Source: Candidatus Enterousia sp.
GTDB taxonomy: Bacteria > Pseudomonadota > Alphaproteobacteria > Rs-D84
DNA: 64,000 nucleotides
Reading direction: 5' to 3'
NCBI GenBank assembly: GCA_045613785.1
Contig: JAZLBQ010000024.1
Location: 49,572 to 113,571 of the forward strand
Shown in pieces: positions 23,909 through 51,415 of the stretch; the first letter of the stretch is position 1; the number at the start of each line of letters is the position of its first letter. Position numbers and translations under genes: made by a program. Below the pieces are notes generated by a model that was not told the DNA's origin, searched no databases, and was given only the letters and a program-made list of their open reading frames with translations.

Positions 23909-25537
23909 ATGAAAATTCCATTTAAACTTTTAATTTTGGGCAGTTTGATTTTTGCAACAATGACAGGCTGTGCCAGAAAAGAGTCTGCCAAGGTCGCGGC
24001 ATCTGTTGATCAGGATTTTATAAATGCTTATGATGCATTCGAAATGGCTAAAAACCCAAGAGCCAAAGTCGCAACAGGTGATACAGTTTCTATGTCAGAG
24101 GGTGTTTGGTTGGGCAGTAAATCGATGGTTTTGGAACATCGTAATAATTTGCCTTCTAAATTTGAAACTGATACAGGTGTAACAATTTTATTAGATGAAC
24201 CTGTTTCTTTGCAGGTTTTGGCAAATGATATTTATTCGATAACAGGTATCCCCGTTAAAATCGATGGTCAGGTTTCAGCAGAAAAATTAAAAAAACAGGT
24301 AAATATCGCTTATACCGGAAAATTGTCAGGATTGTTGAGCCAGGTCGCAACTGATTTGGATTTGCTGTGGTATTATGATAAAAATTCTATTGTGTTCTAT
24401 GAAACAGAAACGAAAACATTTACTTTGTATGCATTAGGAACAGAAGTTGCATATCAGACATCTGTTTCGACAGATAATTCTAATGAAGTGTCTTTGGAAT
24501 CTACGTTGAAAGAGTGGGATGAAGTTGAAAGTGCGATTTCTTCAATTATTGGTAAGGCTTCAAATGCAGACTTTACTGTTTCTCGTAGTTTGGGAACAAT
24601 CACAGTGACGGCATCACCGTCCATTTTGGCACGTGTTGGCGAATATATTGAACGTCAAAATAAACGTTTAAGCCAGTTGATTACAATTGATGTAAAGGTT
24701 TTGCAGGTTACAATTTCAAATGATTCTGCATTTGGTTTGAACTTGGCGGCAGCAATAAATTCTGCTTCTGGGTTGAATATTGTTGCAAATCCAAAAAATA
24801 ATTTGGCATCAACTGAGGCTAGTTCGATGAATATTGCGGTTCTGTCAAATACAGTTTCTGCATTGACTGGTGCGACACATCAGGAAGGCTCTTCAACCGT
24901 TGAAGGGGCATATACTAACGACCAGATTATGAATGGTTCTTTGTCAGGGGCGGCTGGTAGTAATGCTTTGATTCAGGCGTTGGCAAAGCAAGGTAAGGTT
25001 TCTTTGGTCACAAATGTTGGCGTTACAACACGTTCAAATCGTGTTGCACCAGTCAGCAATACCAGAACAACTGGTTATATCAAACGTTTCGAATCTAGAA
25101 ACTTTACAACAGTCGAATCTAGCACTGTTGACCAAGATGATTTGGAAACAGGATTTACAATGCAGCTGTTGCCAAATGTATTAGAAAATGGTCGAATCTT
25201 GTTGTTGTTCCGTATGTCTGTTCGTGAATTGTTGCGTATGTCAACCCAGACAATTGGTGAAGTAACTTTGCAGTTGCCAGAGGTTGAAGAACGTAGCTTT
25301 ATGCAGGAAGTAATTATGGAATCTGGCCAAATGCTGGTTGTTTCAGGATTTGAAAAACAGACTAATGAAGATACTCGTTATGGCTTAGGTGATCCTGACT
25401 TTATGGCGTTGTCTGGTTCTCGTGAAACATCGGCAACTCGTGAGGTCTTGGTGGTTATCTTGACTCCACAGGTTTTGGTTAGCCCAATGGATGTAGAACG
25501 TGGGATACAACAGCACTGGGGTGCACCACTGAACTAA
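23909..25537 (+). CDS. Lipoprotein secretin of the PilN/BfpB/TcpC (type IVb pilus) type
   Basis: Lipobox MTGC; secretin motifs IDVKVLQV, ALAKQGKVSLV, LETGFTMQLLP, SGQMLVVSGF, LVVILTP. Confidence 0.85.
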   Translation: MKIPFKLLILGSLIFATMTGCARKESAKVAASVDQDFINAYDAFEMAKNPRAKVATGDTVSMSEGVWLGSKSMVLEHRNNLPSKFETDTGVTILLDEPVSLQVLANDIYSITGIPVKIDGQVSAEKLKKQVNIAYTGKLSGLLSQVATDLDLLWYYDKNSIVFYETETKTFTLYALGTEVAYQTSVSTDNSNEVSLESTLKEWDEVESAISSIIGKASNADFTVSRSLGTITVTASPSILARVGEYIERQNKRLSQLITIDVKVLQVTISNDSAFGLNLAAAINSASGLNIVANPKNNLASTEASSMNIAVLSNTVSALTGATHQEGSSTVEGAYTNDQIMNGSLSGAAGSNALIQALAKQGKVSLVTNVGVTTRSNRVAPVSNTRTTGYIKRFESRNFTTVESSTVDQDDLETGFTMQLLPNVLENGRILLLFRMSVRELLRMSTQTIGEVTLQLPEVEERSFMQEVIMESGQMLVVSGFEKQTNEDTRYGLGDPDFMALSGSRETSATREVLVVILTPQVLVSPMDVERGIQQHWGAPLN

Positions 25538-25744
25538 ATTAAATATAATAATTCATCTATGCGTAAATCCGCTGGCTCATGTATGTTCAATGCACTACGC
25601 CAGCGGATTTTCACATATCTAAATAATTCTATTTAATTTCACTTATTTGTTGATAATTCATCTGTGAATGGTGTCGTTTCCTTGTGTCGCTTCTGGGCAC
25701 TGCGGGGACGACACTGTCCGCATCTAAATCATTTTATTTAATTT
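25536..25744 (+). repeat. Tandem palindromic element, units A then B
   Basis: Unit A stem AAATCCGCTGGC(25565-76)/GCCAGCGGATTT(25599-610); unit B (about 25652-25744) long wobble stem; both begin ATAATTCATCT and end ATCTAAA..ATT(C/T)TATTTAATTT; homologous to 51214-51415. Confidence 0.9.
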
Positions 25745-25882
25745 TTTTGTGTTGAAAACTCGTGTCTTTATAAATTGTCATGTTTTATATAAAGTTTAGC
25801 ACATTAGTATGTTTTGTTTGTTGTGTGCTAAGTTGTTGTTTATATGTGTTTTTTTATGCTGATAAGAAAGCTGATTTTTTTG

Positions 25883-25912
25883 TTGCGACAGATTCGGTTT
25901 TTTTCTTATAAT
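25883..25912 (+). promoter_or_regulatory. Sigma70 promoter with GATTCG in the spacer
   Basis: TTGCGA-cagattcggtttttttct(18)-TATAAT. Confidence 0.55.
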
Positions 25913-25977
25913 GGTGTCGTAGGATTGAATGAAGTGCTGGTGGTTATTTTGGTGGCATTTTCATTAAACGGGAATTT

Positions 25978-26379
25978 ATGATGTTAAAACGGATTGTTGC
26001 AATTTGTATATTTTGCCTGGGGGGATTTTATTTCCCAGGTGTTTCTTATGCAAATTTAACTTCCAAGGGTTATGTAGATGCAATTGTAGCAGCTGTTGCA
26101 AGCAGTAAAGTCGATAAGACTGAATTTAATAGTCATGCAAGTAATAATTCTAACCCACATGCAGTTACAGCAGCACAAGTTGGTTTGGGTAATGTGAAAA
26201 ATGTTGACCAGACTAATGCTGGTAATTTATCTTCTGGAACAGTTGCGTATGGTCGTTTGCCGGTTGGTAATACCGCTAATACTGTGGCGGCTGGTGATGA
26301 TGTGCGTTTTGGAACAATTCCGACTGTTGCACCAACAGGCACACCGCCAGAAGGACAGGTTTATGTCTGGTTTAATTAG
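25978..26379 (+). CDS. Exported small protein made of phage tail-fibre-like motifs
   Basis: Signal peptide; NLTSKGYVD, NPHAVTAAQVGLGNVKN, NTVAAGDDVRF. Confidence 0.65.
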   Translation: MMLKRIVAICIFCLGGFYFPGVSYANLTSKGYVDAIVAAVASSKVDKTEFNSHASNNSNPHAVTAAQVGLGNVKNVDQTNAGNLSSGTVAYGRLPVGNTANTVAAGDDVRFGTIPTVAPTGTPPEGQVYVWFN

Positions 26380-26388
26380 GGTTGTGTA

Positions 26389-27381
26389 ATGCCTGCAATA
26401 AATATTGCTGATATTCAAATTGTTTTGCAGACGGTTCAGACAACACAACCGGCACTTAAGTTCATGGATTCTTCTGGAAATCTTTACTATGCAGAAGCTC
26501 ATTTGGGGGCCTGTGCTGACAGTTTAGTCGTTGGTGATGGTGATGCATCGTGGACAATCGGAAAATCAACATTGGTTTATGAGGCAACAAAATTTGACTC
26601 GTGTGAAAAGGTAAGTTTAAGTCCGGGGTGTTATTCGGTTGTGCTTATGGGTGGTAAAGGTGGTGCTGGTGGTAATAATGGAGATGAAGGCTCTGTAACT
26701 ACAGAAGAGTATTTGAGTTTTAATTTATATCAGACAACTGATGTTTATCTTTTACGTGGCAGTGATGGTAAGGCAGGTGGCGTGAATTCGTCGGGTGGTT
26801 TGTATTCTGGCGGCGGTGGCGGTGCATCTGGTGTGCCAAGTTTTTTTGCCGTTGATGGTAAATATATTATTTCCCAGGGTGGAACAGGTGGAACTGGTGC
26901 TGTCGCAACAAAGTCTGATGGTACGGCACAGGATTGTGCAGCAGGTGGTGGCGGCGGTATAAGTGGGGCTCAATCAGGCATGGGGTCTGTTGGTGCGGAT
27001 GCTTGGGATGCTAAAGGCTTTGTTTGTGGTGCAGGTGGCGGTGGTTCGCTGGGTGGAAAAGGTGGTAATAAGTCGTCGGGTTTCTTGTATAATGGCTCAG
27101 CAGGATTGGATGCAACGGACACGTCGGGTGGTGATGGTGGAAGTTCGTCAATTGGCGGATTGTTAGGAACTAGTTCGTCGAGTGGCGGGGCAGGTGGTGC
27201 AAATGTTGCATATTCGTGTGGCGGTCAGACTTTTTATTCTTATGGTGGCGGCGGTGGCGGTGGTGCATCAATGGGTGGTTTGTTTGGAATTGGTGTAAAT
27301 GCAAACGGCGGTGTTGGTGGCAGTGGTGGGATTGGTTCAAGTTCAACCAGTTATGTCAAAATTTATCGCTTAGGTTTATAA
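26389..27381 (+). CDS. Glycine-rich protein (polyglycine-II sandwich / phage adhesin-like)
   Basis: Repeated GGKGGAGG, SGGGGGASG, AAGGGGG, YGGGGGGG blocks separated by variable loops, ending SYVKIYRL. Confidence 0.65.
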   Translation: MPAINIADIQIVLQTVQTTQPALKFMDSSGNLYYAEAHLGACADSLVVGDGDASWTIGKSTLVYEATKFDSCEKVSLSPGCYSVVLMGGKGGAGGNNGDEGSVTTEEYLSFNLYQTTDVYLLRGSDGKAGGVNSSGGLYSGGGGGASGVPSFFAVDGKYIISQGGTGGTGAVATKSDGTAQDCAAGGGGGISGAQSGMGSVGADAWDAKGFVCGAGGGGSLGGKGGNKSSGFLYNGSAGLDATDTSGGDGGSSSIGGLLGTSSSSGGAGGANVAYSCGGQTFYSYGGGGGGGASMGGLFGIGVNANGGVGGSGGIGSSSTSYVKIYRLGL

Positions 27382-27412
27382 GTTTTTTTTATTTCGTTAT
27401 TTGTTGAATAAA

Positions 27413-27437
27413 AAAAATCCCCAAACAGGGGATTTTT
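27413..27437. terminator. Bidirectional terminator
   Basis: AAAAATCCCC-aaaca-GGGGATTTTT between convergent genes. Confidence 0.8.
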
Positions 27438-27457
27438 AATTTTTTCTGAAATGGCAA

Positions 27458-27718
27458 TTATGCCATTTTAGCAACTTTTTTAGCCAAGCGAGAAATCTTG
27501 CGAGCTGCACGCTTCTTTGGCATGATTTTGCCAGCAGATTTCATAATCTTGCTTTCTGCATTGCGAGCCGCTGTTGTTGCAGCAGCCTTGTCCCCAGATT
27601 CAATGGCGACCAATGCTTTCTTCGTCGCTGTTTTAACAGCACTGCGACGTGATGTGTTGATTGCATTTTTCTTGGCAGTTACCAAAATTCTTTTTTCAGA
27701 TGACTTGTGATTTGCCAC
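27458..27718 (-). CDS. rpsT: 30S ribosomal protein S20
   Basis: MANHKSSEKR...N..RRS..KT..KK...AARKISRL. Confidence 0.96.
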   Translation of the reverse strand: MANHKSSEKRILVTAKKNAINTSRRSAVKTATKKALVAIESGDKAAATTAARNAESKIMKSAGKIMPKKRAARKISRLAKKVAKMA

Positions 27719-27791
27719 GTTATTTTCCTTTTATTTTTGTTTTGATTTTGCTATTTTATAAAAAACAAACATAAAATCAAGGAAAAATAAC

Positions 27792-28379
27792 ATGGTGAAC
27801 TTTATTGGAATAATTATTTCTTATTTGTTTGGCAGTGTGCCAATGGGTTTAATCCTGACAAAAATCGCAGGCAAGGGCGATTTGCGTAAGGTCGGCAGTG
27901 GTAATATCGGGGCAACAAATGTTATGCGGGTCGGTGGTTTGCGTATGGCAGGGTTGGTCTGGATTCTGGATATGGCCAAGGCAATCGCTGCTGTTTTCTT
28001 GGGAAAATATATCGCAGGTGAGGCATTCGGTGCGTGGTGTGGATTTGCCGCAATCGTTGGGCATTGCTATCCAATTTGGCTGAAGTTTAAGGGAGGTAAG
28101 GGGATTTCTTCGCTGTTTGGCGTGTTGTTGGCTGTCAGTCCTATTTCTTTTCTGACATGTGGGGCGTTGTGGTTGATTGTGGCGTTGAGTAGTGGGATTT
28201 CTTCGCTTGGGGCGTTGTTTGTTTTTTGCTATATCCCTGTGTTGGGGTTCTTAATCAGTCCGATGGTGGGTTGGGCTTTCCTGGCAATTGGTTTGTTGTG
28301 CATGTGGCGGCATCGGGAAAATATCAAGCGTTTGTTGGTCGGTAAAGAATCTAAAATTGAGTGGAAGTGGAAAAAATAA
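27792..28379 (+). CDS. plsY: Glycerol-3-phosphate acyltransferase PlsY
   Basis: GSGNIGATNVMR, D-x-x-K, GHCYPIW-x-x-FKGGKG and HRENI motifs. Confidence 0.96.
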   Translation: MVNFIGIIISYLFGSVPMGLILTKIAGKGDLRKVGSGNIGATNVMRVGGLRMAGLVWILDMAKAIAAVFLGKYIAGEAFGAWCGFAAIVGHCYPIWLKFKGGKGISSLFGVLLAVSPISFLTCGALWLIVALSSGISSLGALFVFCYIPVLGFLISPMVGWAFLAIGLLCMWRHRENIKRLLVGKESKIEWKWKK

Positions 28380-28482
28380 TCGGTAAAAGGGGTGTTTCGC
28401 CCCTTTTGTTTTTTATTTATTCTTTATTTTTTATGCTTTTTGTGGTATAATATGTTGTAAGATATCAAGAGGGAAGTGAGCG

Positions 28483-29367
28483 ATGAGCAGATTTTTTTCA
28501 GTGTTTCTTTTAATCTTGGGAATTGGGCCTGCAGTGGCGTCTGTGCCAACATTGACACCAGCGACGGGGCGTGGAAGGGCATCTATGTCAAATCAGATGA
28601 TGGCTGCACCTCGTGCGGTTGCATCAAAGGCTCAGATTTCAGCGGGGGCGGCATTGACACCAGAGTCTGTGACGGTAAATAAGCCAAGTGTCAAGGTGGA
28701 AGACGTTGATGCAAGTCTGGCCGTAAAACCAGAAGAGATGAAACCTGTAGAAAAAGATATGCGTGAAAAAGAAAAACGTGCTTGCTTGCAGAATAATATT
28801 GGTGTTGGAAATACTTTTGTTTGGGCATCTCGTTATAGCAACTTGGGCAGTTATTCAACAATGATTGAAGATGTCGAAGAACCAGATAACAATACTTGTT
28901 TTGTAAAAGTCGAATTAAAATCAAATGATTCAAGAATTAGTGTGGCGGACGTTTTGCCAAAATACTATGAAATGGGCAGAATTATAACCTGTGGTGAATG
29001 GGCAAATAAGGATACACTGAAAAAACGTATTTTAGATGCTAAAAAATCTGCACGAACATGGGCAACAGTTGGTGGGGCAGTCGGTGGTGCAGCTGTTGGT
29101 GTTGGTGCAATGGAATTGTTTGGAAACAGATTGATTGGTGGTAGTGTAGAAGGACAGAAACATTTGGAACGTAATGATCAGGTCGGCTTGTTGCGTTCAC
29201 AGTTGGCTGTTCTACAAAAAGATAATGAAACAGAATATGGACGTTTTATTGGTAATTTAAAGTCATTGAAGGAAGACTGTAATGATAAGGTTTGGGATAC
29301 AGAGGCGACAAAAAAACCAGATGCCTGTAAAAAGTGGGAACCGTATTTCGTGATTCTGTCAGAATAA
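28483..29367 (+). CDS. Exported hypothetical protein with a glycine-zipper segment
   Basis: Signal peptide; VGGAVGGAAVGVGA; several Cys. Confidence 0.7.
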   Translation: MSRFFSVFLLILGIGPAVASVPTLTPATGRGRASMSNQMMAAPRAVASKAQISAGAALTPESVTVNKPSVKVEDVDASLAVKPEEMKPVEKDMREKEKRACLQNNIGVGNTFVWASRYSNLGSYSTMIEDVEEPDNNTCFVKVELKSNDSRISVADVLPKYYEMGRIITCGEWANKDTLKKRILDAKKSARTWATVGGAVGGAAVGVGAMELFGNRLIGGSVEGQKHLERNDQVGLLRSQLAVLQKDNETEYGRFIGNLKSLKEDCNDKVWDTEATKKPDACKKWEPYFVILSE

Positions 29368-29463
29368 TAAAAGAAATCCGCATAAGCGGATTTTTTTTAT
29401 GAACGCTTTTGCCATAATTAAATGCACTTGAATTAAATTTCAAAATTATCGTATAGTCCGACT

Positions 29464-30486
29464 ATGTCAGATATATATAATAAGTTGTTGATTTTGAGAA
29501 CGCCGGGTATTGGACCAGTAAAGTATAGGGCATTGGTTGAACGTTTCGGTTCTGTGGCGACAGCTGCACAATCTTTGAATTCAGATTTAGCGTTTTGTGA
29601 TTCGGTTCTGCATGAGATGGAGGCCGCTAAGAAACAACATATATATTATATAGATGATGAAGATGAACGTTATCCTGTGGCGTTGAAGGAAATAAAAAAC
29701 CATCCGCCTGTTATTTCAGTGCGTGGAAATTTAGATGTCTTGAAGAAACAGGCTGTCGCTATTGTTGGAACAAGGCACGCAACAGCCGCAGGTATGGAAT
29801 TAGTCGCCGATATTGCACAACGATTCGCAGAAAATAATGTGGCGGTTATATCTGGTATGGCAATCGGAACAGATACGGCTGCACATCGTGGGGCATTGCG
29901 TGCGAGTGGGGATTCTCAAACGATTGCGGTTTTGGCTGGCGGGGTAGATTATATTTGGCCACTGGAAAACGAACGTTTGTATCACCAGATATTAGAGCGG
30001 GGTGCTGTTGTTAGCGAAATGCCGGTTGGTTATGTCCCTGTTGCAACTAATTTTGTTCAGCGAAACCGAATCGTCGCAGGATTCGCAAATCGCTTGATTC
30101 TGGGTGAGGCAGATTTGAAATCAGGTTCAATGACAACAGCACGATTCGCAATCGATTTTGGACGTGATGTGTGGGCAATTCCATCGCACCCCGCAGATTC
30201 CCGGGCGTTGGGGCCTAATACACTGATTCGGAGTGGTGATGCAAAACTGTGTATGGGGGTAGATGATTTTTTTGCAACTGATGAAAAAAAATCAAATGTG
30301 AAAAAAATATCAAAAAAATCTGATGCGGAATTTAATCTAATTGACGCAATAGGAACTGTTCCTGTGTCTGAATCTGTATTGACAGGTGTTGCCAAAAAAA
30401 CGATTTCGGAAATTAAAAGCGAATTGGTTGTCTTGGAATTGCAGGGTTTAGTGCGAAAAGTTGACGGTGGCTATGTTCGAAACTGA
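29464..30486 (+). CDS. dprA: DNA-processing protein DprA
   Basis: AIVGTR, SGMA-x-G-x-D-x-x-AH, F..RNRIVAG, SGSMTTA motifs; C-terminal winged helix. Confidence 0.95.
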   Translation: MSDIYNKLLILRTPGIGPVKYRALVERFGSVATAAQSLNSDLAFCDSVLHEMEAAKKQHIYYIDDEDERYPVALKEIKNHPPVISVRGNLDVLKKQAVAIVGTRHATAAGMELVADIAQRFAENNVAVISGMAIGTDTAAHRGALRASGDSQTIAVLAGGVDYIWPLENERLYHQILERGAVVSEMPVGYVPVATNFVQRNRIVAGFANRLILGEADLKSGSMTTARFAIDFGRDVWAIPSHPADSRALGPNTLIRSGDAKLCMGVDDFFATDEKKSNVKKISKKSDAEFNLIDAIGTVPVSESVLTGVAKKTISEIKSELVVLELQGLVRKVDGGYVRN

Positions 30487-30891
30487 TTCTTTTTATGTAT
30501 ATACGCTGTATATACAAGCGGCGGAAAATGGGTAAAAAAACGAATCGTTGTCAAAAAATAAAAGTGAAAAAATTGGTTAAAGTTTGGTTGTAAACTGGAA
30601 AATATCATTTAACTTATTTGACGTATCCAAAACGAAAAACAAACAAAAAAATGGGGCGGGGTTTTGAGAGAGATTTCAAAATAACGTTCTGAGAAAATGG
30701 ATGGATTTTTATTTAGGTGCAATGACCAAAAATAAAATGAAGTTCGAAAATTTTAACGGCGAGAGAGTTAAAAGTAGGACAATAAAAATATCAGAATTCT
30801 GAACGGGAAGGCAGAAAATGATGTTTTGTGCAGGTGACTTTTACAACCTGGTTCGGAAGGCTCTCTTTTAGGGAAGGAAAGGAGAAACAGA

Positions 30892-32169: not shown

Positions 32170-32264
32170 AAACCGCCCGTTTGGGCGTTTTTATATTTGG
32201 ATTGATGGAGTAATTATGGTAAAATAAAAGCAATAATGATATCTAGATTCAAAGGGGAAAGGAT

Positions 32265-33806: not shown

Positions 33807-33916
33807 AATGATGAGGAAAACCAAATAAAAAAATCCCAGTCCGGGGTTTTTTTATTTGAAATTTTTTGACTGTGCTTTTGCCGGCTTTTTATGGGTAGGG
33901 AAATTTATACAATTAC

Positions 33917-33945
33917 TTGATTTTTTGAGGTTTTTGTTTTATCCT
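33917..33945 (+). promoter_or_regulatory. Sigma70 promoter of the ileS leader
   Basis: TTGATT-17-TATCCT ending 8 nt before the leader ATG. Confidence 0.6.
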
Positions 33946-33953
33946 GGTGCGTG

Positions 33954-33986
33954 ATGATTCAGACAACAATAATTATTATTAAATAA
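33954..33986 (+). CDS. Ile-rich leader peptide MIQTTIIIIK
   Basis: ATG ATT CAG ACA ACA ATA ATT ATT ATT AAA TAA; in-frame GTG at 33951. Confidence 0.75.
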   Translation: MIQTTIIIIK

Positions 33987-33987
33987 C

Positions 33988-34035: not shown

Positions 34036-34048
34036 AATTTAAAAACAG

Positions 34049-38251: not shown

Positions 38252-38254
38252 CGT

Positions 38255-42161: not shown

Positions 42162-42235
42162 GTAAGTAAATAATTTGATTGTGAAAAAATAAAAACCGGC
42201 AATTGTGCCGGTTTTTATGCGTATAGCACGTTTTT

Positions 42236-42835: not shown

Positions 42836-42875
42836 ATACGTCTCCTTTATTTATAATTATATATGAATGGTCTTA

Positions 42876-44303: not shown

Positions 44304-44354
44304 AATCTTTATGATAAAATAATATTTATAGAATAGCAAATAAGAGGTTTTTCA

Positions 44355-44819
44355 ATGAATCAAGAATCTGGACGTTCGATGATTGAGATGTTGGGTGTGT
44401 TGGCAATTATGGGAATCATTACCGTAGGAGCTATCGGTATGATTTCAACTGCAATGCGAACACAGAAGTTGACCGAAGTAAATGATGAAGTTATCCAAAT
44501 GGTAACTATGGTTCGCAATATTCACGGCGAATATGATGATTTTTCGAATATGAACGGTCAGACAATTTTTGGTGCAATTGGTATGAGTAATAAAAATCCA
44601 TACGGTGGTTCTTATGAGTTGTCAGTCAATCAATCTAATCCTCGGCAATTTGTTGTCACGATAAATGGATTGGGACAGGCCGAGTGCGAATCACTGGTTG
44701 CCAAGGCCTGGTCCGATTCGATTGGGTATCAGAGCTCTGGTGGTAAAGAAGGCGGTGCAACAGGAAGTTGTAAGGGGCAAAATGGAACAAATTATGTTCA
44801 GATTGTGTATGGTGAATAA
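44355..44819 (+). CDS. Type IV pilin (PilS-like C-terminus)
   Basis: QESG|RSMIEMLGVLAIMGII prepilin motif with E+5; NPYGG; two C-terminal Cys. Confidence 0.8.
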   Translation: MNQESGRSMIEMLGVLAIMGIITVGAIGMISTAMRTQKLTEVNDEVIQMVTMVRNIHGEYDDFSNMNGQTIFGAIGMSNKNPYGGSYELSVNQSNPRQFVVTINGLGQAECESLVAKAWSDSIGYQSSGGKEGGATGSCKGQNGTNYVQIVYGE

Positions 44820-45793
44820 TGGCTGATTTTATTGAAGTTTCCAAGGTAGAAGATGGAACACGGCTGTTGCGGTGGTTCTTGCGGCATTTCCCAGCAATGC
44901 CACAGCGTGAGTTTTATGAACTTTGTCGTGGTGGACAGATTAGGGTAAATTCAAAACGTGTTCGTGGAACAGAAATTTTGAAAACTGGTGATGCAGTGCG
45001 AATTCCTCCTACTGTCGCTGGATATGCACAGGAAAAACCCAAAAAAACAGAAAGTGGTATTGTGTTCTCGTTGGGGGATTTGGAATCGTTGCGTAAATGT
45101 ATTATTCACAATGATGAAGATATTGTTGTGTTTAACAAGCCTGCTGGATTGGCTGTGCAGGGCGGAACAGGAATACGAAAGTCAATCGATAAAATGGCGG
45201 CGGCTTTGTTCCCATACGACAAGATTGCTTTGGTTCATCGTTTGGACAAGGAAACAAGTGGTTTGTTGGTTGTGGCAAAAAATCAACGGGCTGCACAGAA
45301 CTTGTCAAATCAGTTTCAGAATAAAACAGCACACAAGGAATATTTGGCCTTGTTAAAAGGTGATGTCAATCCAAAGAAGGGGTTGATTGATAACTATGTG
45401 TTGAAGGGGCAGGTCTTTGATAATCCTGCACGTTTGAATAATGGTACGGGGCCACGACCACAACGGGCAATAACAGAGTATTCTGTGTTGTCGTGTGCGG
45501 CAGGGTGTGTTTCGTGGGTGCGTTTCTCGCCAAAAACAGGCCGAACCCATCAATTAAGATTACATAGTGCATACTCGCTGGGGGCACCAATCGTTGGTGA
45601 TGCGTTGTATGGTGGACGACAGAACCTGGACGACGGTGCGTTAGGACTGATGCTGGAAACAAATAACTTGTTTTTATTTGCGTATAAGCTAACATTTCAG
45701 CACCCGTCGACTGGGCGTATGATGACGCTGCGGGCAGAAGTGCCAGGATTTATGCAGCCTGTGATGCGGTTTTTAGAATTTCAATTGCCATGA
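44819..45793 (+). CDS. RluA-family pseudouridine synthase (RluC-like)
   Basis: N-terminal S4 domain, NKPAGL, HRLDKETSG, GRTHQLR, IVGD..YG motifs. Confidence 0.93.
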   Translation: MADFIEVSKVEDGTRLLRWFLRHFPAMPQREFYELCRGGQIRVNSKRVRGTEILKTGDAVRIPPTVAGYAQEKPKKTESGIVFSLGDLESLRKCIIHNDEDIVVFNKPAGLAVQGGTGIRKSIDKMAAALFPYDKIALVHRLDKETSGLLVVAKNQRAAQNLSNQFQNKTAHKEYLALLKGDVNPKKGLIDNYVLKGQVFDNPARLNNGTGPRPQRAITEYSVLSCAAGCVSWVRFSPKTGRTHQLRLHSAYSLGAPIVGDALYGGRQNLDDGALGLMLETNNLFLFAYKLTFQHPSTGRMMTLRAEVPGFMQPVMRFLEFQLP

Positions 45794-47865
45794 AAAAAAT
45801 AAGAAAAAGTATCTTTTTTTCAATTATGCGAATTTTGGGCCTGTGTCTTGTCGGTATGGTCGTGGCTATTGTTGTTGCACTGCGGCAGGTCAATCTGGAA
45901 ACTTTGCGTGGAAATTTGTTGACTTTGTTGCGTGATGCAACAGATATGCCAATCGAAATCGATGGTGCTGTGTCGTGGAAGTTGTCGCTGCGGCCACATG
46001 TGGAATTAAACAAAGTTAGAATCGCAAACCAAAGTTGGGCAAAAAATAAAGATGCTTTTAGTGCAGAAAAAATTGATGTCCGCTTAAATCTAATCTCGTT
46101 GTTTCGTAATCGGCCAACTGTTCAAAATGTCAAGGTTTATGACGCAAGGTTAAATATTGAAAAAAATTCAGATGGACAATACTCTATACAGCGGATTTCA
46201 AGGGCTGTGACAGAACAAGAACAAACTGGAAAATCAGTTGAACCTGAAAAGTATCCTTTTAAAGATGCAGGGCTTGGTGGGTTCGAAATCAAGAATTTAA
46301 AGGCGGATATTTTTGGGCAGAAATATTCGTTGTCAGGTTTCCATATTCGTTTGATGCCGATGGCAAAAGGCAGAGAATATTCTGGCTGGATTAAGGTTGA
46401 TACAGATGTTTCGCCTTTTATTATCAATTTTAGTGAGTATAATGCTCAACGTAAGGTTTATCCTGTAAGAATTGCAATGTCAACAGGGGGGCAGGCGTTG
46501 ATTGCAAACGTCGCATTAGAAGGAAAAAGTAAAGCACCAATTGATTTTGTTATAAAGGGAGATTTGCCAAAACCTGAAAATGTTGGACGTTTTTTTGGTG
46601 TCGATTTGTCTTGGTTGCCATCTGTGAATTTGGACTTGGCTGGTGGGTTTGATTGGAAAAAAATAACTTTGCGTCGTTCTAAGATTTTTGTCAATGGAAC
46701 AAAATTTGTTTTGTCGGGGGACTATGATTGGTCAAAAAAAGGAACTGTTTTTAATTTAAATATCTCGTCGGCACATCTAAAATTGGCGGATTTAATCCCG
46801 GGGTTGTATGGGGCAGAACATGAAAAGCCGAATCGCAAATTAAATGTATTTAAGAATATTCCTTTGTTTGGTGAATATATGTTGAACAGAGATGTGAATT
46901 TGAAGGTAAATATAGATAATTTTATTGTTTACAAGGATTTGAATCTGGGAAAATTAGCTTTGACGGCAAATGTGAAAGATAATCATTTGCGTATGGATAT
47001 AGGAACTAAAATTGCTGATGGAAATGTTGATGTTGGAATCGAGGCTGATGTTGATGGCTCTGGACATTTGTGGGGACATGCGGCAGCAAAAGGTAAGGAT
47101 ATTTTTGTTGGGGAACTTTTAAAGGAAATTCACCAGTCTGAATTTATTTCAGAATTGCCAGTAAATCTTGAATTCTATGTTCAGGCAAATGGAAAAAATC
47201 TGTCAGAGGTTATGCAGACAATAACTGGTCCTGTTCAGGTTTATTCTGTTGCACCAGGATATGCTCATTCTTCTTTGGTTTCTTATATTTATGGAACGGA
47301 TTTTCTAACTACTTTGCGACATGGTATTCAGGATTTGTTTAGTTCAGAAAAAAAATATAATCAGATGAAAATATCCTGTGTCGCAGTAAATGTGAAGTTG
47401 CGTGATGGATTGGTTGAGACACAAAATGGTGTCGCAATTGAAACTAATGCCATAAATTTGCGTTTGGCAGGTAGTTTGGATCTGGGTAAGGAAGATATGC
47501 ATTTGTCTTTGACCACAGTGCCTGTTCGGGGCTTGAAGTTATCTTTGACAGGAAATGTCGTAAATTCTATCGAATTGACAGGTAATTTGGCAGAACCAGA
47601 TATTCAAATAAGTGGTGCTGCTGTTGCCGGTAAGGTTGCATCTGCAACAGGAATTGGTTTGTTGCTGGCACCGTTTACTGGTGGTATTGGTTTGGTCGCA
47701 GGAACAGGCGTTGGTTTGATTGCAGGGGATTTGTTGGAAAACTGGTTGGCAGATAGTGAACCATGTGAAACAGCAATGAAGCGTGGTGCACCGCTGTATC
47801 GTGATGACCCAGAATGGATGGGCAGACCTGTGTCCGAACTACTTAGTGTGGTCTTGAAAAATTAA
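45790..47865 (+). CDS. AsmA-family protein
   Basis: N-terminal TM; I-x-G-x-x-x-W-x-L-x-L-x-P...L..V.I.N; beta-rich; C-terminal GSLDL...I.G.L..P. Confidence 0.8.
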   Translation: MKKIRKSIFFSIMRILGLCLVGMVVAIVVALRQVNLETLRGNLLTLLRDATDMPIEIDGAVSWKLSLRPHVELNKVRIANQSWAKNKDAFSAEKIDVRLNLISLFRNRPTVQNVKVYDARLNIEKNSDGQYSIQRISRAVTEQEQTGKSVEPEKYPFKDAGLGGFEIKNLKADIFGQKYSLSGFHIRLMPMAKGREYSGWIKVDTDVSPFIINFSEYNAQRKVYPVRIAMSTGGQALIANVALEGKSKAPIDFVIKGDLPKPENVGRFFGVDLSWLPSVNLDLAGGFDWKKITLRRSKIFVNGTKFVLSGDYDWSKKGTVFNLNISSAHLKLADLIPGLYGAEHEKPNRKLNVFKNIPLFGEYMLNRDVNLKVNIDNFIVYKDLNLGKLALTANVKDNHLRMDIGTKIADGNVDVGIEADVDGSGHLWGHAAAKGKDIFVGELLKEIHQSEFISELPVNLEFYVQANGKNLSEVMQTITGPVQVYSVAPGYAHSSLVSYIYGTDFLTTLRHGIQDLFSSEKKYNQMKISCVAVNVKLRDGLVETQNGVAIETNAINLRLAGSLDLGKEDMHLSLTTVPVRGLKLSLTGNVVNSIELTGNLAEPDIQISGAAVAGKVASATGIGLLLAPFTGGIGLVAGTGVGLIAGDLLENWLADSEPCETAMKRGAPLYRDDPEWMGRPVSELLSVVLKN

Positions 47866-47888
47866 ACAAAATAGAAAAGGGGAAGAAA

Positions 47889-48650
47889 ATGTTTAGTTGG
47901 ATTGATTTAATTCAGGTTGTAATTATTGGTGTGGCGATTTATTTCTTTTATCGCAGTTTTATCGAAAACACACAGTCAGAAAAATTGGTGCGGGGACTGC
48001 TGGGGTTGGCAGGACTTTGGGTGATTAGTTTCATTTTATCTTCTGTTCATCTGAATCTGTTGGCAACATTCTTGCATTGGACGGCTTTGTTCTTGTCGTT
48101 GAGTTTGATTGTCGTGTTTCAGCCAGAATTGCGTAAGTTTATGGCCTTGATGGGTAATGTTCAAGGTTGGAGAAGAGTCTTTAAACGTGGCGGGGTGCAA
48201 AAACGTGATACTGCATCGCTTGATGATTTGGTTACAGCTGTTGAATATATGTCAAGTAAGCATACAGGGGCTTTGATTGTGTTTCCTAGCACTTTGGACG
48301 AAAGTGCAATCGATAGAAAAGGTGTCAGAATTGATGCGAAAATTAGTAGCGAATTATTATTGACGATTTTCTTTAATAAAACGCCTTTGCATGATGGGGC
48401 GGTCATTATTGAAAATAATCGTATTGCATATGCAGGTGCGATTTTGCCTTTGTCGCAGAATAATTTGAACTGGAAATATGGAACACGTCATCGGGCTGCA
48501 CTGGGGGTGAGTGAGGTCTCCAGAGCTGTGGTTTTGGTCGTGTCCGAGGAAAGTGGCGATATTTCAATTGCTGAAAAAGGTAAAATTACCAAATATGATG
48601 ATGTAAAAAAGTTGAGAGCTAGGTTGGAAAAGGTTTTGAGCCGAGAATAA
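47889..48650 (+). CDS. cdaA: Membrane diadenylate cyclase CdaA/DacA
   Basis: Three TMs, FQPELR, GALIV, PLHDGAV, GTRHRAA, VVSEESG motifs. Confidence 0.92.
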   Translation: MFSWIDLIQVVIIGVAIYFFYRSFIENTQSEKLVRGLLGLAGLWVISFILSSVHLNLLATFLHWTALFLSLSLIVVFQPELRKFMALMGNVQGWRRVFKRGGVQKRDTASLDDLVTAVEYMSSKHTGALIVFPSTLDESAIDRKGVRIDAKISSELLLTIFFNKTPLHDGAVIIENNRIAYAGAILPLSQNNLNWKYGTRHRAALGVSEVSRAVVLVVSEESGDISIAEKGKITKYDDVKKLRARLEKVLSRE

Positions 48651-48699
48651 AACTAAGCACCCATAACAGTGGGTGCTTTTTTTTTGTGTGCTTTTGGTC

Positions 48700-48729
48700 T
48701 TGCACCGAATCGGGAAATTTTGGTATGGT
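48700..48729 (+). promoter_or_regulatory. Putative dnaN promoter with GAATCG in the spacer
   Basis: TTGCAC-cgaatcgggaaattttgg(18)-TATGGT. Confidence 0.5.
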
Positions 48730-48773
48730 AAAAGCAAAAGAGTATAATATATAAAGGAAACAGGAGTGTTATC

Positions 48774-49892
48774 ATGGAATTTTCAGTGTTTCGTCAGGTT
48801 TTAATACGTGCGCTGGGGCATATGCAATCGATTGTAGAAAAGCGTGCTACATTGCCGATTTTGATGAATGTTAAAATAGAAGCAGCAGATGATTTGATTC
48901 TGTCGGCAACTAATGTTGATTTGGAATTAGTTGAACATGTTGCAGCAGATATTACATTGGGCGGTAAAATCACAGTGCCTGTGCAAATGCTGTATGATAT
49001 TGTTCGTAAATTGCCAGATGATGCAGAAATTTCTTTTAAACAGTCTGGGGATCAGTTGGTTGTTTCAAGTGGTCGTGCAGTATTTCGTTTGCCAACTTTG
49101 CCAGCAGAAAATTTCCCAGCAATGGCAGGCAGTAATTTGACAACTAAGTTCCAGATGACAACTGGGGATTTGGCTCATTTAATCAATCAAACAAAATTTG
49201 CTATCCCAACAGATGATGTTCGTTATCATTTAGGGGGTATCTATTTCCATATTGCAGACGAAGGCGATGTAAAGAAACTGACTGCTGTTGCAACAGACGC
49301 ACAGCGTATGGCGTTGTGTGCAATGCCAGCACCAGCAGGCAGTGCAGAAATGCCAGCAGTTATTTTGCCACGTCGTGTGATTGGTGAATTGTCAAAGTTG
49401 TTGGAAGATGCAAATGTTGATGATGTTATGGTTGAATTGTCTGATACAAAGGCTCGCTTTACAGTTGGGGCTGCAACATTGACCAGCAAATTGGTTGATG
49501 CACAGTATCCAAACTATCGTGTCGTTATCCCAAAAGGTAATGACAAGATTGCTGTCTTGGACAGAAAACAATTCATCAATGCTGTTGACTTGGTTTCAGT
49601 TGCTAGCGTGGATAAGACAAAGTCAGTGCAGTTGACATTTAGTATGAATAAGTTGGTTATCAATGCGTCTAGCCCAGATGCAGGAACTGCAACCCAGGAA
49701 CTGGATATCGAATATAATGGCGATAGTTCATTTACAGTTGTGTTTAATGTAAAGTTCTTGTTAGACGTTGCTGGTCAGGTCGAAGGCGAAAAATTCCAGA
49801 TGGAAATGCAAGACCCATTGGCACCAACTAAAATCAATTCGGTTGATAAAGATACAGATGCGTTATATGTTTTGATGCCGATGAGAATGTAA
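48774..49892 (+). CDS. dnaN: DNA polymerase III beta clamp
   Basis: PILMNV, ATNVD, VATD..R, YPNY..VIP, VLMPMR motifs. Confidence 0.97.
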   Translation: MEFSVFRQVLIRALGHMQSIVEKRATLPILMNVKIEAADDLILSATNVDLELVEHVAADITLGGKITVPVQMLYDIVRKLPDDAEISFKQSGDQLVVSSGRAVFRLPTLPAENFPAMAGSNLTTKFQMTTGDLAHLINQTKFAIPTDDVRYHLGGIYFHIADEGDVKKLTAVATDAQRMALCAMPAPAGSAEMPAVILPRRVIGELSKLLEDANVDDVMVELSDTKARFTVGAATLTSKLVDAQYPNYRVVIPKGNDKIAVLDRKQFINAVDLVSVASVDKTKSVQLTFSMNKLVINASSPDAGTATQELDIEYNGDSSFTVVFNVKFLLDVAGQVEGEKFQMEMQDPLAPTKINSVDKDTDALYVLMPMRM

Positions 49893-49904
49893 AAAAAATA
49901 CAAG

Positions 49905-49929
49905 AAAACCGCCGTATGGCGGTTTTTTT
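49905..49929 (+). terminator. Rho-independent terminator
   Basis: AAAACCGCC-gtat-GGCGGTTTTTT. Confidence 0.8.
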
Positions 49930-50036
49930 ATCTTGCTGATGTAATTGTTTTGCAGTGATGCTGGTTTGTTCTAAAATAATTGCAAACGGATTTTTTTATG
50001 TTATTATTTTGTCAACATAAATAAGAGGGTATAAAT

Positions 50037-50579
50037 ATGACACTTGAAAATCTGGCCGCAGGAAAGTTGCCTCCAAAGAAAATGAACGCAATTATTGAAA
50101 TTCCTGAAAATGGTCATGTAAAGTATGAAATTGATAAAGAAACGGGCTTGTTAAAGGTGGATCGTATTTTGCATGCACCAATGGCATATCCTGCAAACTA
50201 TGGTTATTTCCCAGGAACATTAGGTGATGATGGCGACCCTTTGGATTGTGTGGTTGTGTGTAATGCTCCGTTGCGTCCAGGTGTTTTGATTGAAGTGCGT
50301 CCAATTGGTGCTTTGTTGATGGAAGATCAGGCAGGTGGAGACGAAAAAATTATCTGTGTTCCACGTGATAAAATTGATCCTTATTATGAAAAGATTGAAT
50401 TTGTTGAACAATTGCCTGAAATTTTGCGTTCTAAAATTGAATATTTCTTTCAGCACTACAAGGATTTGCAGTCTAATGCTTGGTCAAAAATTCTGGGCTG
50501 GGCTGATCGTGAAGCTGCTGATAAATTGATTATGGAAAGTATTGATCGTTATTGGAAGCACAAGCGTGAAATGCAATAA
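50037..50579 (+). CDS. ppa: Inorganic pyrophosphatase (family I)
   Basis: KYEIDK, YPANYG, DGDPLD, FF.HYK motifs. Confidence 0.97.
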   Translation: MTLENLAAGKLPPKKMNAIIEIPENGHVKYEIDKETGLLKVDRILHAPMAYPANYGYFPGTLGDDGDPLDCVVVCNAPLRPGVLIEVRPIGALLMEDQAGGDEKIICVPRDKIDPYYEKIEFVEQLPEILRSKIEYFFQHYKDLQSNAWSKILGWADREAADKLIMESIDRYWKHKREMQ

Positions 50580-50643
50580 AGCACTTGCGTTTCGATGGCG
50601 GATTTTTATAATCAAAAAGTCTTAGATTAAAAGAGGTATTAAA

Positions 50644-51213
50644 ATGGCATCTTATATTGCAAACGATATGCGTGTGGGTTGGGTTATTTCGCATAATGGT
50701 AAACGTTATTCTGTTACATCTATTACCAAAGTAAAACCAGGTAAAGGTGGGGCGTTCGTTCAGGCAGATTTGCGTGATATTGATTCTGGTAACAAAGGTG
50801 GTGATCGCTGGCGTGCAGAAGATAAAGTTGAAAAGTTGATGGTCGAAGATTTTGATTGTCAGTATTTGTATGCAGATGGCACAGATGCGTTCTTTATGAA
50901 TTTGTCTGATTATGAACAGTTTACAATGGCCGTTGATTCATTGGGCGAAGCAATGAAGTTCTTGGCACCTGAAATGGTTGTTAAAGCGAACTTTGTCGAA
51001 GGACAGCCTGTATCAATTTCTTTGCCAAAGACTGTTATCGCAACTGTCGAAGAAACAGAACCTGCATTAAAAGGTCAGACAGTTTCTAGCAGTGGTGGAA
51101 AACCAGCTATTTTGGATAATGGTGTTCGTGTTCAGGTTCCGTTGTTTATCGAACAAGGTGAAAAAATTGTCGTAAATACGGAGACTTTGGAATACGTAGA
51201 ACGTGCAAAATAA
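50644..51213 (+). CDS. efp: Elongation factor P
   Basis: KPGKGGAF, KPA.L..G..V.VP.FI motifs. Confidence 0.96.
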   Translation: MASYIANDMRVGWVISHNGKRYSVTSITKVKPGKGGAFVQADLRDIDSGNKGGDRWRAEDKVEKLMVEDFDCQYLYADGTDAFFMNLSDYEQFTMAVDSLGEAMKFLAPEMVVKANFVEGQPVSISLPKTVIATVEETEPALKGQTVSSSGGKPAILDNGVRVQVPLFIEQGEKIVVNTETLEYVERAK

Positions 51214-51415
51214 AAAATTAAATAGAATAATTCATCTGCGGACTGTGCCGTTCCCTTATGTCGCTTCTGGACACTGCGGGGACGGCACAGTCCGCATCTA
51301 AACTATTCTATTTAATTTTATCTAGTTGCTGATAATTCATCTATGCGTAAATCCGTTGGCTCATGTCCGTTCAATACACTACGCCAACGGATTTTCACAT
51401 ATTTAAATCATTCTA
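51214..51415 (+). repeat. Tandem palindromic element, units B then A
   Basis: B' perfect 15-bp stem TGCGGACTGTGCCGT(51237-51)/ACGGCACAGTCCGCA(51282-96) inside a 16-bp terminal inverted repeat; A' stem AAATCCGTTGGC/GCCAACGGATTT. Confidence 0.9.

What the first reader, a model, noticed from the sequence alone, without database searches (positions are those of the whole stretch)
25536..51415. Two-unit palindromic element present twice in swapped order, with compensatory base changes
Seen: 25536-25744 is A then B and 51214-51415 is B then A, each starting at the stop codon of a + strand gene (secretin, efp). A and B have unrelated stems but share the same frame: ATAATTCATCT...stem...loop (T-Y-R-TGT-x-x-x-TTC-x(3-4)-CACT-R-C-G)...stem...AT(C/T)TAAA..ATT(C/T)TA. 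Covariation: a C:G pair in stem A becomes T:A in A' (CCGCTGGC/GCCAGCGG versus CCGTTGGC/GCCAACGG), and GTGTCG/CGACAC in B becomes GTGCCG/CGGCAC in B'. Most other changes give G:U pairs on the + strand only. The first unit at each locus is enclosed by an AAATTAAATA.AATA / ATTCTATTTAATTT inverted repeat. The loop resembles the CTCACGTA...TACGCTGCG core I recall for Rickettsia palindromic elements. Inference: a modular REP/BIME- or MITE-like family or 3'-UTR structured RNA with exchangeable stems and a conserved protein-recognised loop.
Basis: partly seen in the sequence, partly recalled or inferred. Interest (0 to 1): 0.72.

Follow-up and report, generated by a model that had tools for sequence, protein, structure and literature searches.

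The report
Hairpin repeat capping leading-strand genes
The two loci are tandem copies of a 105-base hairpin-forming DNA repeat of small-genome gut bacteria (Candidatus Enterousia) that sits on the stop codon of genes, takes the place of an ordinary terminator, and keeps its loop and flanks constant while its stem is swapped or rewritten.

Summary
Window 25536-25745 is unit A then unit B. Window 51215-51424 is B then A. Each array starts at the stop codon of a + strand gene (PilN-type secretin, efp).

They belong to a family of about 105-bp units. Each unit has an AT-rich inverted-repeat frame, an 18-bp hypervariable stem, a conserved 22-nt loop, and ATCT on both sides of the stem. The family was found in 119 of 151 genomes of the genus and in a few sister genera. 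It was not found in 150 other sampled genomes of the class.

On 116 distinct units, 96.8% of pair cells are paired, against 79.8% in shuffles. Of 125 units, 121 abut the stop of a co-oriented gene. All loci tested lie on the G-rich (leading) strand.

Element-free relatives carry a canonical terminator at the same sites. The closest relative has [A][A*] after efp where this genome has [B][A'], so whole units are replaced.

No RAYT or other transposase was found, only XerC and XerD.

Best reading: a REP/BIME-like, RAYT-less palindromic repeat that serves as a terminator or 3'-end hairpin. The copying enzyme and the loop's partner are unknown.

This scan noted the same family twice before, once elsewhere in this genome and once in another genome.

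The parts
25536..25640 (+). Unit A, first position. Outer and middle frame 25536-25558, ending in ATCT. 5' arm 25559-25576, loop 25577-25598, 3' arm 25599-25616, right frame 25617-25639. It starts inside the secretin stop codon (25535-25537).
   Evidence: R1 score 114.1 bits on +, 65.9 on -.
25641..25745 (+). Unit B, second position. Its left side is a linker (CACTTATTTGTTGA) in place of the outer repeat, followed by TAATTCATCT. Arms 25664-25681 and 25704-25721, loop 25682-25703, right frame 25722-25744.
   Evidence: 85.0 bits.
51215..51319 (+). Unit B', first position, with a complete outer inverted repeat. Arms 51238-51255 and 51278-51295 (17 Watson-Crick pairs and 1 G.T), loop 51256-51277. 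It starts 1 nt after the efp stop (51211-51213).
   Evidence: -56.9 kcal/mol, z -14.0; 112.3 bits.
51320..51424 (+). Unit A', second position. Linker TATCTAGTTGCTGA. Arms 51343-51360 and 51383-51400, loop 51361-51382. The right frame is degenerate and overlaps the stop codon (51418-51420, - strand) of the convergent class II aldolase gene.
   Evidence: 91.0 bits.
23909..25537 (+). Upstream gene of locus 1: PilN-family type IVb pilus secretin, 542 aa.
   Evidence: TIGR02520, E 2.3e-70, below the curated cut-off.
50644..51213 (+). Upstream gene of locus 2: elongation factor P, 189 aa.
   Evidence: NF001810, 217.5 bits, above the cut-off.
51418..52386 (-). Convergent gene whose stop lies inside unit A': class II fructose-bisphosphate aldolase.

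Best explanation
The two loci are short tandem arrays of a palindromic repeat family that appears specific to the order Rs-D84. By record titles the organism is Candidatus Enterousia, a gut alphaproteobacterium with a genome of about 0.9 Mb.

Shown:
- A unit is one long imperfect hairpin. It has an AT-rich outer stem, a middle stem, a conserved ATCT/ATCT internal loop, an 18-bp stem whose sequence is free but paired, and a conserved 22-nt loop that holds a 4-bp helix.
- Units sit with their 5' end on the stop codon of a co-oriented gene.
- They were found only on the G-rich strand.
- They sit at sites that are conserved between species.
- Relatives without the element have a canonical intrinsic terminator at those sites.

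Inferred:
1. The element acts on the sense transcript as the terminator or 3'-end hairpin of that gene. The strong stem is placed about 23 nt past the stop.
2. Arm complementarity is kept at the DNA level, by arm-to-arm templated correction or conversion, rather than by RNA-level selection that tolerates G:U.
3. Copies spread and replace each other by recombination, conversion or slippage through the conserved frame. This explains A-B at one site and B-A at the other.
4. The conserved loop, the ATCT flanks and the leading-strand restriction reflect recognition of the folded sense strand by a factor not yet identified. The sense strand is also the lagging-strand template.
For: - Anatomy and stability.
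- Family size and range: 13 units at 8 loci in this genome, plus one weak match. 119 of 151 genus genomes match. In the order sample, 87 of 107 genomes of the genus match, 4 other genera of the family match, 1 of 4 genomes of a second family match, and 0 of 25 genomes of the four other families match. None of 150 other genomes in the class sample match.
- Covariation on 116 distinct units: 96.8% of cells paired versus 79.8% in shuffles (0 of 500 shuffles reach it). 26 of 38 pairs have changes on both sides. Slid controls give 35-41%.
- Placement: 121 of 125 units have a same-strand open frame ending within -9 to +12 nt of the 5' end. In 43 of those the stop lies inside the element. Only 15 of 135 have a convergent frame ending at the 3' end.
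- Strand: 15 of 15 loci in a 370-kb contig of G123 lie on the leading strand, against 152 leading and 72 lagging ORFs in the part of that contig (0-240 kb) with clear skew (Fisher p 0.003). All 8 loci in this genome do too. 17 of 17 loci of 3 kb from other genomes show positive GC skew in the element's sense.
- Conserved sites: FtsK, TrxB, YebC, efp and secretin ends carry units in both G000 and G123, with different stems.
- Terminator replacement, read by eye: 6 of 6 element-free efp ends and 1 of 2 element-free secretin ends have a GC hairpin plus a T run right after the stop. No canonical terminator is called at either window locus.
- Terminator-like polarity: in the lower half of the stem, 5'A:3'T pairs number 470 against 118 for 5'T:3'A. 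In 50 of 116 units at least 6 of the 10 nt after the 8-bp upper stem are T.
- DNA-level pairing: 1074 of 1170 pairs are Watson-Crick, with 34 + strand wobbles against 32 - strand wobbles.
- Unit replacement: G204 has [A][A*] after efp where G000 has [B][A'], with flanks 96% identical. The secretin end is [A][B] in both. A DNA contig of run X1 carries 109 other letters at 51215-51226.
Against: - No transcript ends were seen. The one RNA run is kept as contigs, which break at the repeat.
- The loop is 22 nt, against 3-8 nt in canonical terminators. 10 nt separate the stem from the U-rich tail in most units. The simple terminator scan does not call the elements.
- A function purely in mRNA 3' ends does not explain why genes on the lagging strand have none.
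- No mechanism for copying is shown.
- MAGs often lack plasmids and mobile DNA, so a mobilising gene could have been missed.
- The leading-strand assignment rests on GC skew by convention. No origin was mapped.
- Loci in related genomes are not independent, so the p-values are overstated.
- Terminators at the empty sites were judged by eye.
Confidence: 0.5

Rival explanations
1. A non-autonomous single-strand DNA transposon, like a REPIN or IS200/IS605-derived element. An enzyme not captured in these assemblies, or of an unknown kind, recognises the folded sense strand on the lagging-strand template and inserts it. Any terminator-like role is secondary or merely tolerated.
For: - Leading-strand restriction. 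From my knowledge of IS608/ISDra2 work (recalled, not read here), this is the signature of transposition that targets the lagging-strand template.
- Near-identical copies at non-orthologous sites within one genome.
- A conserved asymmetric loop and ATCT on both sides of the stem.
- Unit replacement between close relatives.
Against: - No Y1_Tnp, RVT_1, IS110, rve or DDE_Tnp_1 in this 96% complete genome.
- Y1_Tnp occurs in 3 of 201 genus genomes, while 119 of 151 carry the element. Those three are ordinary IS200-like genes with unrelated hairpins.
- There is no fixed target word 5' of the element and no target duplication visible.
- Occupied sites are conserved across species.
Confidence: 0.2
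2. A structured 3'-UTR RNA module whose conserved loop binds a specific protein or RNA. It would regulate the upstream gene through stability, processing (for example by RNase III) or ribosome stalling at the stop codon, as reported for stop-proximal REPs in E. coli.
For: - Strict sense orientation and contact with the stop codon.
- A conserved loop with a covarying 4-bp inner helix.
- G.U-rich partial units in arrays that pair only as + strand RNA.
- Precedent: REPs within 15 nt of a stop stall ribosomes (passages of PMC12306157 citing its reference 17).
Against: - No excess of + strand wobble pairs in the variable stem (34 versus 32).
- The whole unit folds better as the - strand in 119 of 120 units.
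- Absence from lagging-strand genes is unexplained.
- No Rfam family matches.
- No expression evidence.
Confidence: 0.17
3. A recombination site for a tyrosine recombinase acting on folded single strands. This could be an attC-like site, or an element that exploits the host's XerC/XerD.
For: - Structure is conserved while sequence varies, and a mismatch or bulge recurs at stem position 13.
- The element lies directly behind ORFs in the sense orientation.
- XerC- and XerD-like genes are the only recombinases found.
Against: - No integron integrase was found, and there are no cassette arrays. The flanking genes are core genes in conserved order.
- The dif candidate at G000:C3:83484 does not resemble the frames.
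- There is no GTTRRRY-type core.
Confidence: 0.04

Closest known systems
REP / BIME elements and REPINs with RAYT transposases (Enterobacteria, Pseudomonas)
   Same: - Extragenic palindromic repeats at gene 3' ends.
- Arrays of two alternating unit types joined by conserved linkers.
- Vertically persistent.
- Concerted evolution by conversion has long been proposed for REPs (a review title seen in the reference list of PMC12306157).
- Stop-proximal copies can act on translation.
   Different: - Units are 105 bp rather than 20-40 bp.
- Tandem units are direct, not inverted.
- The loop and flanks are conserved and the stem is free, which is the reverse of REPs.
- No cognate RAYT.
- Strict contact with the stop codon and restriction to the leading strand. 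In E. coli, REPs are reported on both strands (passage of PMC12306157).
Bacterial MITEs with full-length dyad symmetry (Correia/NEMIS, ERIC; recalled, plus the abstract of PMC2229807 in the listing)
   Same: - About 100-150 bp.
- Terminal inverted repeats; the whole element folds as a hairpin in transcripts.
- Can provide terminator or processing sites.
   Different: - No target-site duplication seen.
- No parent IS or transposase found.
- One fixed orientation relative to gene and replication.
- Hypervariable, paired core.
Integron attC sites (for example the Vibrio VCR family; recalled)
   Same: - A folded single strand with conserved structure and variable sequence.
- Directly downstream of ORFs in one orientation.
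- Bulged positions.
   Different: - No integron integrase, attI or cassette array.
- Sites are dispersed behind core genes.
- The conserved loop has no counterpart in attC.
Rho-independent (bidirectional) terminators
   Same: - They occupy the same place at the orthologous sites of element-free relatives.
- Many units have an A-tract, a GC stem and a T-tract in that order.
   Different: - A 22-nt structured loop.
- Conserved flanking frame.
- Repeated sequence family.
- Not called by a standard scan.
Rickettsia palindromic elements
   Same: Palindromic repeats of about 100-150 bp in a reduced alphaproteobacterial genome.
   Different: From my own knowledge, RPEs are known for in-frame insertion inside protein genes. 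Here 121 of 125 units lie behind the stop. No sequence comparison was possible, because I held no RPE sequence.

Membership tests
REP/REPIN-RAYT | A cognate RAYT (Y1 transposase, PF01797) in the genome | tested here: not met
   0 matches in G000. The control rings in 6 of 14 genomes. 3 of 201 genus genomes have a match, and those are IS200-like genes with unrelated hairpins.
REP/REPIN-RAYT | A short REP palindrome with a conserved 5' tetranucleotide; a REPIN is two REPs in inverted orientation | tested here: not met
   One 105-bp hairpin per unit. Tandem units are in direct orientation. GTAG occurs only inside the loop of some variants.
REP/BIME | Extragenic, at 3' ends of genes, in mosaic arrays with conserved linkers | tested here: met
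   (alternating arrays in G015 and G087).
MITE | Terminal inverted repeats | tested here: met
   AAATTAAATA / TATTTAATTT and covarying variants.
MITE | Target-site duplication, and an autonomous IS with the same ends | tested here: not met
   No duplication at the flanks. No rve, DDE_Tnp_1, IS110, Y1 or RT gene in G000. Other transposase families were not searched.
Integron attC | An integron integrase with a cassette array | tested here: not met
   The only tyrosine recombinases are one XerD-like and one XerC-like gene. The flanking genes are core genes.
Intrinsic terminator | A GC-rich hairpin followed directly by a U tract; termination of transcripts | tested here: inconclusive
   50 of 116 units have at least 6 T in the 10 nt after the upper stem. 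The simple scan makes no call. No 3'-end data.
Rickettsia palindromic elements | In-frame insertion within protein-coding genes | tested here: not met
   121 of 125 units begin at or after the stop codon.
Any Rfam family | A match to a curated covariance model | tested here: not met
   Only 2 tRNAs reach gathering score in the window. The best E-value over locus 1 is 0.72, from spurious miRNA hairpin models.

The most novel reading that the evidence does not exclude
These are 'mobile terminators': a RAYT-less hairpin cassette locked to one replication strand. An unknown enzyme, or a host enzyme such as Xer or a replication protein, recognises the conserved loop and the ATCT flanks on the folded lagging-strand template. 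It then copies or swaps the stem-loop between the stop codons of leading-strand genes. This would be a new class of single-strand mobile DNA that has taken over transcription termination in a reduced genome.
Probability: 0.15. Interest if true: 0.8.

Novelty: new variant of a known kind. Interest (0 to 1): 0.6.

Why it matters
REP-type repeats are among the commonest unexplained features of bacterial genomes. This family turns their usual logic round: the loop and flanks are fixed and the stem is free. It obeys unusually strict rules (on the stop codon, sense orientation, leading strand only), has no RAYT, and replaces ordinary terminators in genomes of only about 0.9 Mb, where spare DNA is scarce.

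That makes it a clean natural system for three questions:
- How are palindromes kept perfect?
- How do repeats spread without a transposase?
- Can selfish hairpins become the host's terminators?

There is a practical point as well. The repeats break assemblies of these abundant livestock-gut bacteria, and contigs end in them.

Tried and rejected
- **Rfam.** Nothing at gathering score or at E up to 10.
- **RNA evidence.** One metatranscriptome run (X18) holds part of the stretch, but only as low-depth contigs that break at the repeat. Nothing can be said about transcript ends or strand.
- **Joints.** The 'goes back 105' joints and the loose ends are mostly cross-mapping between copies of the repeat.
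- **RAYT / IS200.** Absent or unrelated.
- **RT, IS110, rve, DDE_Tnp_1.** Absent in G000. I did not search TnpB, Y2/IS91, Rep or relaxase families.
- **Xer idea.** A good dif candidate exists on contig C3 and does not resemble the frames. A 9-of-11 likeness of the outer repeat to an XerD arm was recalled from memory only, and I dropped it.
- **Strand asymmetry as proof of RNA.** The variable stem shows none. The better folding of the - strand comes from conserved frame mismatches (C.A, T.C on +) and is shared by descent.
- **Folding a whole array on either strand.** Gave no extra insight.
- **Two efp loci (G167, G116; L167, L168).** They were printed in the wrong orientation and not read.
- **Loop motif outside elements.** I found only further degenerate units.
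- **Literature.** 'Enterousia' gives 16 papers and 'Rs-D84' gives 12. By title and abstract listing none is about repeats. PMC12306168 has 0 occurrences of repeat, palindrom, mobile or transpos. A search on palindromic element, stop codon and leading strand gave nothing alike in the 12 papers listed out of 119. Supplements were not opened.


Full report
**1. The observation**

The sequence is as described. Window 25536-25745 holds two head-to-tail units of about 105 bp, A then B. Window 51215-51424 holds B' then A'.

Each unit reads as follows:
- a left frame ending in TAATTCATCT;
- an 18-nt arm;
- a 22-nt loop, TCATGTATGTTCAATGCACTAC in A and TTGTGTCGCTTCTGGGCACTGC in B;
- the complementary 18-nt arm;
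- a right frame, ATCTAAAYCATTCTATTTAATTT.

The first unit of each array also has the outer inverted repeat AAATTAAATA / TATTTAATTT. The second unit has a linker (CACTTATTTGTTGA or TATCTAGTTGCTGA) in its place.

The arrays begin at the stop codons of a PilN-type secretin gene (ORF 23909-25537) and of efp (50644-51213). The second array ends on the stop of the convergent aldolase gene at 51418.

All four units fold far better than shuffles, with z from -4.3 to -14.0.

**2. It is a large family**

The genome is 1.04 Mb in 26 contigs, 96% complete. It holds 13 units at 8 loci, plus one weak match.

I built a covariance model from 13 units of 8 genomes (A1, R1).
- It matches 119 of 151 genomes of the genus.
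- In a sample of the order it matches 87 of 107 genomes of the genus, four other genera of the same family, 1 of 4 genomes of a second family, and 0 of 25 in the four other families.
- In a sample of the class it matches none of 150 other genomes.

Public record titles of exact-pattern matches name 'Candidatus Enterousia sp.' or 'Alphaproteobacteria bacterium' MAGs from ruminant, yak, deer and other animal guts. A paper on these bacteria places them in the order Rs-D84 with genomes mostly under 1 Mb. It says nothing on repeats; I read passages only.

**3. What is conserved and what is free**

I aligned 116 distinct units with MAFFT, not fitted to the model (A3). The stated structure has 38 pairs.
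- 96.8% of cells are paired, against 79.8% in shuffles (0 of 500 shuffles reach the observed value).
- 26 of the 38 pairs have changes on both sides, in 817 cells.
- With the partner columns slid, 35-41% are paired.

In the 19-pair central helix, 18 pairs show changes on both sides. The AT-rich outer stem covaries too:
- AAATTAAATA / TATTTAATTT
- AAATAAATTA / TAATTTATTT
- AAATAAAATA / TATTTTATTT
- AAATCAATTA / TAATTGATTT

So does the middle stem (AATAATTC / AAATCATT, AATGGCAT / ATACCATT, AACATCAC / GTAATGTT). The 4-bp helix inside the loop covaries as well (TGTA/TACA against TGTC/GACA).

Three things do not vary: most of the loop, the ATCT on each side of the variable stem, and a CCG/CGG core at stem positions 6-8 from the loop. 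The two ATCT face each other as C.T and T.C mismatches on the sense strand.

**4. DNA palindrome or RNA stem?**

In 65 unique stems with arms of equal length, 1074 of 1170 pairs are Watson-Crick. There are 34 G.T/T.G pairs, which are wobbles on the sense strand. There are 32 A.C/C.A pairs, which would be wobbles on the other strand. The remaining 30 are other mismatches. For that count, 16 of 120 unique units failed my parsing pattern and were dropped, and 22 of the 87 unique stems were dropped because their arms differ in length.

Whole units fold better as the - strand in 119 of 120 cases. This comes from the conserved frame mismatches and is one shared feature, not 119 events.

Near-perfect, strand-symmetric pairing fits a DNA-level process that copies one arm from the other. 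Templated correction of quasipalindromes and arm-to-arm conversion are such processes; I know them from the literature and did not read it here. It fits less well with slow compensatory evolution of an RNA.

One strand asymmetry does exist. In the lower half of the stem, 5'A:3'T pairs outnumber 5'T:3'A pairs 470 to 118. In 50 of 116 units the 8-bp GC-rich upper stem is followed by at least 6 T in 10 nt. This is the layout of an intrinsic terminator read in the sense direction.

**5. Placement rules**

Of 125 full units with at least 180 nt of upstream sequence, 121 have a same-strand open frame ending within -9 to +12 nt of the unit's first base. In 43 of these the stop codon lies inside the unit. 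Only 15 of 135 have a convergent frame ending at the 3' end. These counts include orthologous sites in related species.

- In a 370-kb contig of G123, all 15 loci lie on the strand with G excess. The part of that contig with clear skew (0-240 kb) has 152 ORFs on that strand and 72 on the other (Fisher p 0.003).
- All 8 loci of this genome lie on the G-rich strand (C24 skew +0.2; C26 0-60 kb -0.13 to -0.27). The weak match on contig C1 does too.
- 17 of 17 loci of 3 kb from other genomes have positive skew in the element's sense.

Taking G excess as the leading strand is a convention. No origin was mapped.

The genes concerned are ordinary core genes: ftsK, trxB, yebC, efp, dnaN, cdaA, rpsM, fabF, addB, secB, a gspF-like gene, an acyl-CoA ligase and the secretin.

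**6. Sites are old, contents are young**

The ends of ftsK, trxB, yebC, efp and the secretin gene carry units in both G000 and G123, but with different stems and even different middle frames. The efp and secretin ends carry units in many further species, again with different stems.

Within one genome the same stem recurs at unrelated sites. A occurs four times and B six times here. One stem type occurs at six or more sites in G087 and another at four in G120.

The closest relative found is G204, 96% identical over the efp 3' end and 94% over the secretin 3' end. Its secretin end has [A][B], as here. Its efp end has [A][A*], where this genome has [B][A'].

So the 'swapped order' results from replacement of the first unit at one site in one lineage. 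It need not be an exchange of stems within a fixed pair.

A DNA contig of run X1 has 109 other letters between 51215 and 51226, which suggests a further unit in some strains. I could not see those letters.

Arrays elsewhere alternate two unit types (G015, 4-5 units). In G087, full units are followed by partial units with a conserved G/T-rich left part. Slippage or unequal exchange between the direct repeats ATAATTCATCT of neighbouring units would give exactly such register shifts. That is inference.

**7. What the element replaces**

At element-free efp ends (G113, G127, G093, G086, G021, G051), all six that I read show a GC-rich hairpin followed by a T run within about 70 nt of the stop. At the secretin end G086 does and G051 does not. 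These were judged by eye. Two further loci, from G167 and G116, were not read.

At the two window loci a simple scan finds no canonical terminator between the stop and the next gene. After efp, the two units fill the whole space between two convergent stop codons.

In G204 the degenerate second unit has lost its right frame, and its 3' arm runs straight into T runs.

**8. What could move or copy it**

This genome has no match to Y1_Tnp, RVT_1, DEDD_Tnp_IS110, rve or DDE_Tnp_1. The controls ring in 3 to 9 of 14 named genomes. It has two tyrosine recombinases, one XerD-like and one XerC-like, and a canonical dif candidate unlike the element.

Y1_Tnp occurs in 3 of 201 genus genomes, as IS200-like genes with their own unrelated hairpins.

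REP/RAYT membership therefore fails, and no parent IS is in sight. MAGs can miss plasmids and phages, so this is not proof of absence.

**9. Reading**

What is shown:
- a family of hairpin repeats that appears specific to this order;
- strong structural covariation;
- a fixed loop and ATCT flanks;
- fixed sense orientation on stop codons of genes on the G-rich strand;
- conserved sites;
- replaced units;
- canonical terminators at the empty sites.

What I infer:
- The element serves as the terminator or 3' hairpin of its gene.
- Pairing is maintained at the DNA level.
- Spread and replacement go through the conserved frame.
- An unidentified factor reads the loop on the folded sense strand, which is both the mRNA strand and the lagging-strand template.

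A pure mRNA function leaves the strand rule unexplained. A pure transposon model leaves the missing enzyme and the conserved sites unexplained. I therefore hold the combined reading at about 0.5.

**10. Known or new**

No Rfam family matches. I found nothing in print on repeats of Enterousia or Rs-D84 (listings and passages only, no supplements).

The nearest kinds are REP/BIME and REPIN elements, whole-length palindromic MITEs, attC sites and intrinsic terminators. It fails a defining feature of the first three, and the terminator test is open.

This scan noted the same family twice before, once elsewhere in this genome and once in another genome, with the same main conclusions. I re-derived the placement, strand and terminator points independently here. 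New in this report are:
- the unit replacement in G204;
- the lack of strand bias in stem mismatches;
- the A/T polarity of the lower stem;
- the conserved ATCT/ATCT internal loop;
- the array forms.

Noticed in passing
G000 contig C3:83484-83511 (outside the window): A canonical dif-like site, AAGGCGCATAA TGTATA TTATGTATAGT. It goes with one XerD-like gene (C24, about 9.9-10.4 kb) and one XerC-like gene (C12, about 44.4-44.9 kb).
   Followed up: partly
L171-L177 (G087), e.g. L171:601-990: Arrays of one full unit followed by 2-4 partial units. Their left half is a conserved G/T-rich block (TACGCAYCTGATGKGCTGTGTGYGGG...) that pairs with the right arm only through G.T pairs or not at all. Two right-arm types alternate.
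   Followed up: partly
L227 (G021), just after the efp stop, reverse strand of the locus: An element-free efp end reads TAATTAAATATAAAAAA and then a canonical terminator. The first 12 bases look like the element's outer left repeat. This could be a remnant, a precursor or chance.
   Followed up: no
L233 (G051), about 120 nt after the secretin stop: A run of about 15 CA dinucleotides lies in the intergenic region downstream of the secretin gene. It is a possible slippage tract.
   Followed up: no
L211, L212, L213 (G154, G044, G243): IS200-like Y1 transposase genes flanked by their own GC-rich hairpins (AATACCCCGGG...CCCGAGGG). They were seen in only 3 of 201 genus genomes.
   Followed up: partly
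whole contigs: G000 C24, C3, C10; G123 C2: GC skew is very strong for a bacterium (0.16-0.29 in 10-kb windows). Elements cluster in some skewed regions (C24; C26 0-36 kb; G123:C2 14-221 kb) and are missing from others with equal skew (C3, C10).
   Followed up: no
G123:C2:66350-70013 (L193): Three consecutive co-directional genes (cdaA, dnaN, efp) are each followed by their own unit.
   Followed up: no
window 25883-25912 (+): A promoter-like site (TTGCGA, 18 nt spacer, TATAAT; 10 of 12 matches) lies between the array and the next ORF at 25978. The left frame of every first unit also contains a perfect TATAAT hexamer.
   Followed up: no
G123:C2:216690-216860 (- strand): A degenerate unit with different middle frames and a partial duplicate. 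It still carries the TCATGTAGCG loop start and the AAATTAATTT outer repeat.
   Followed up: partly
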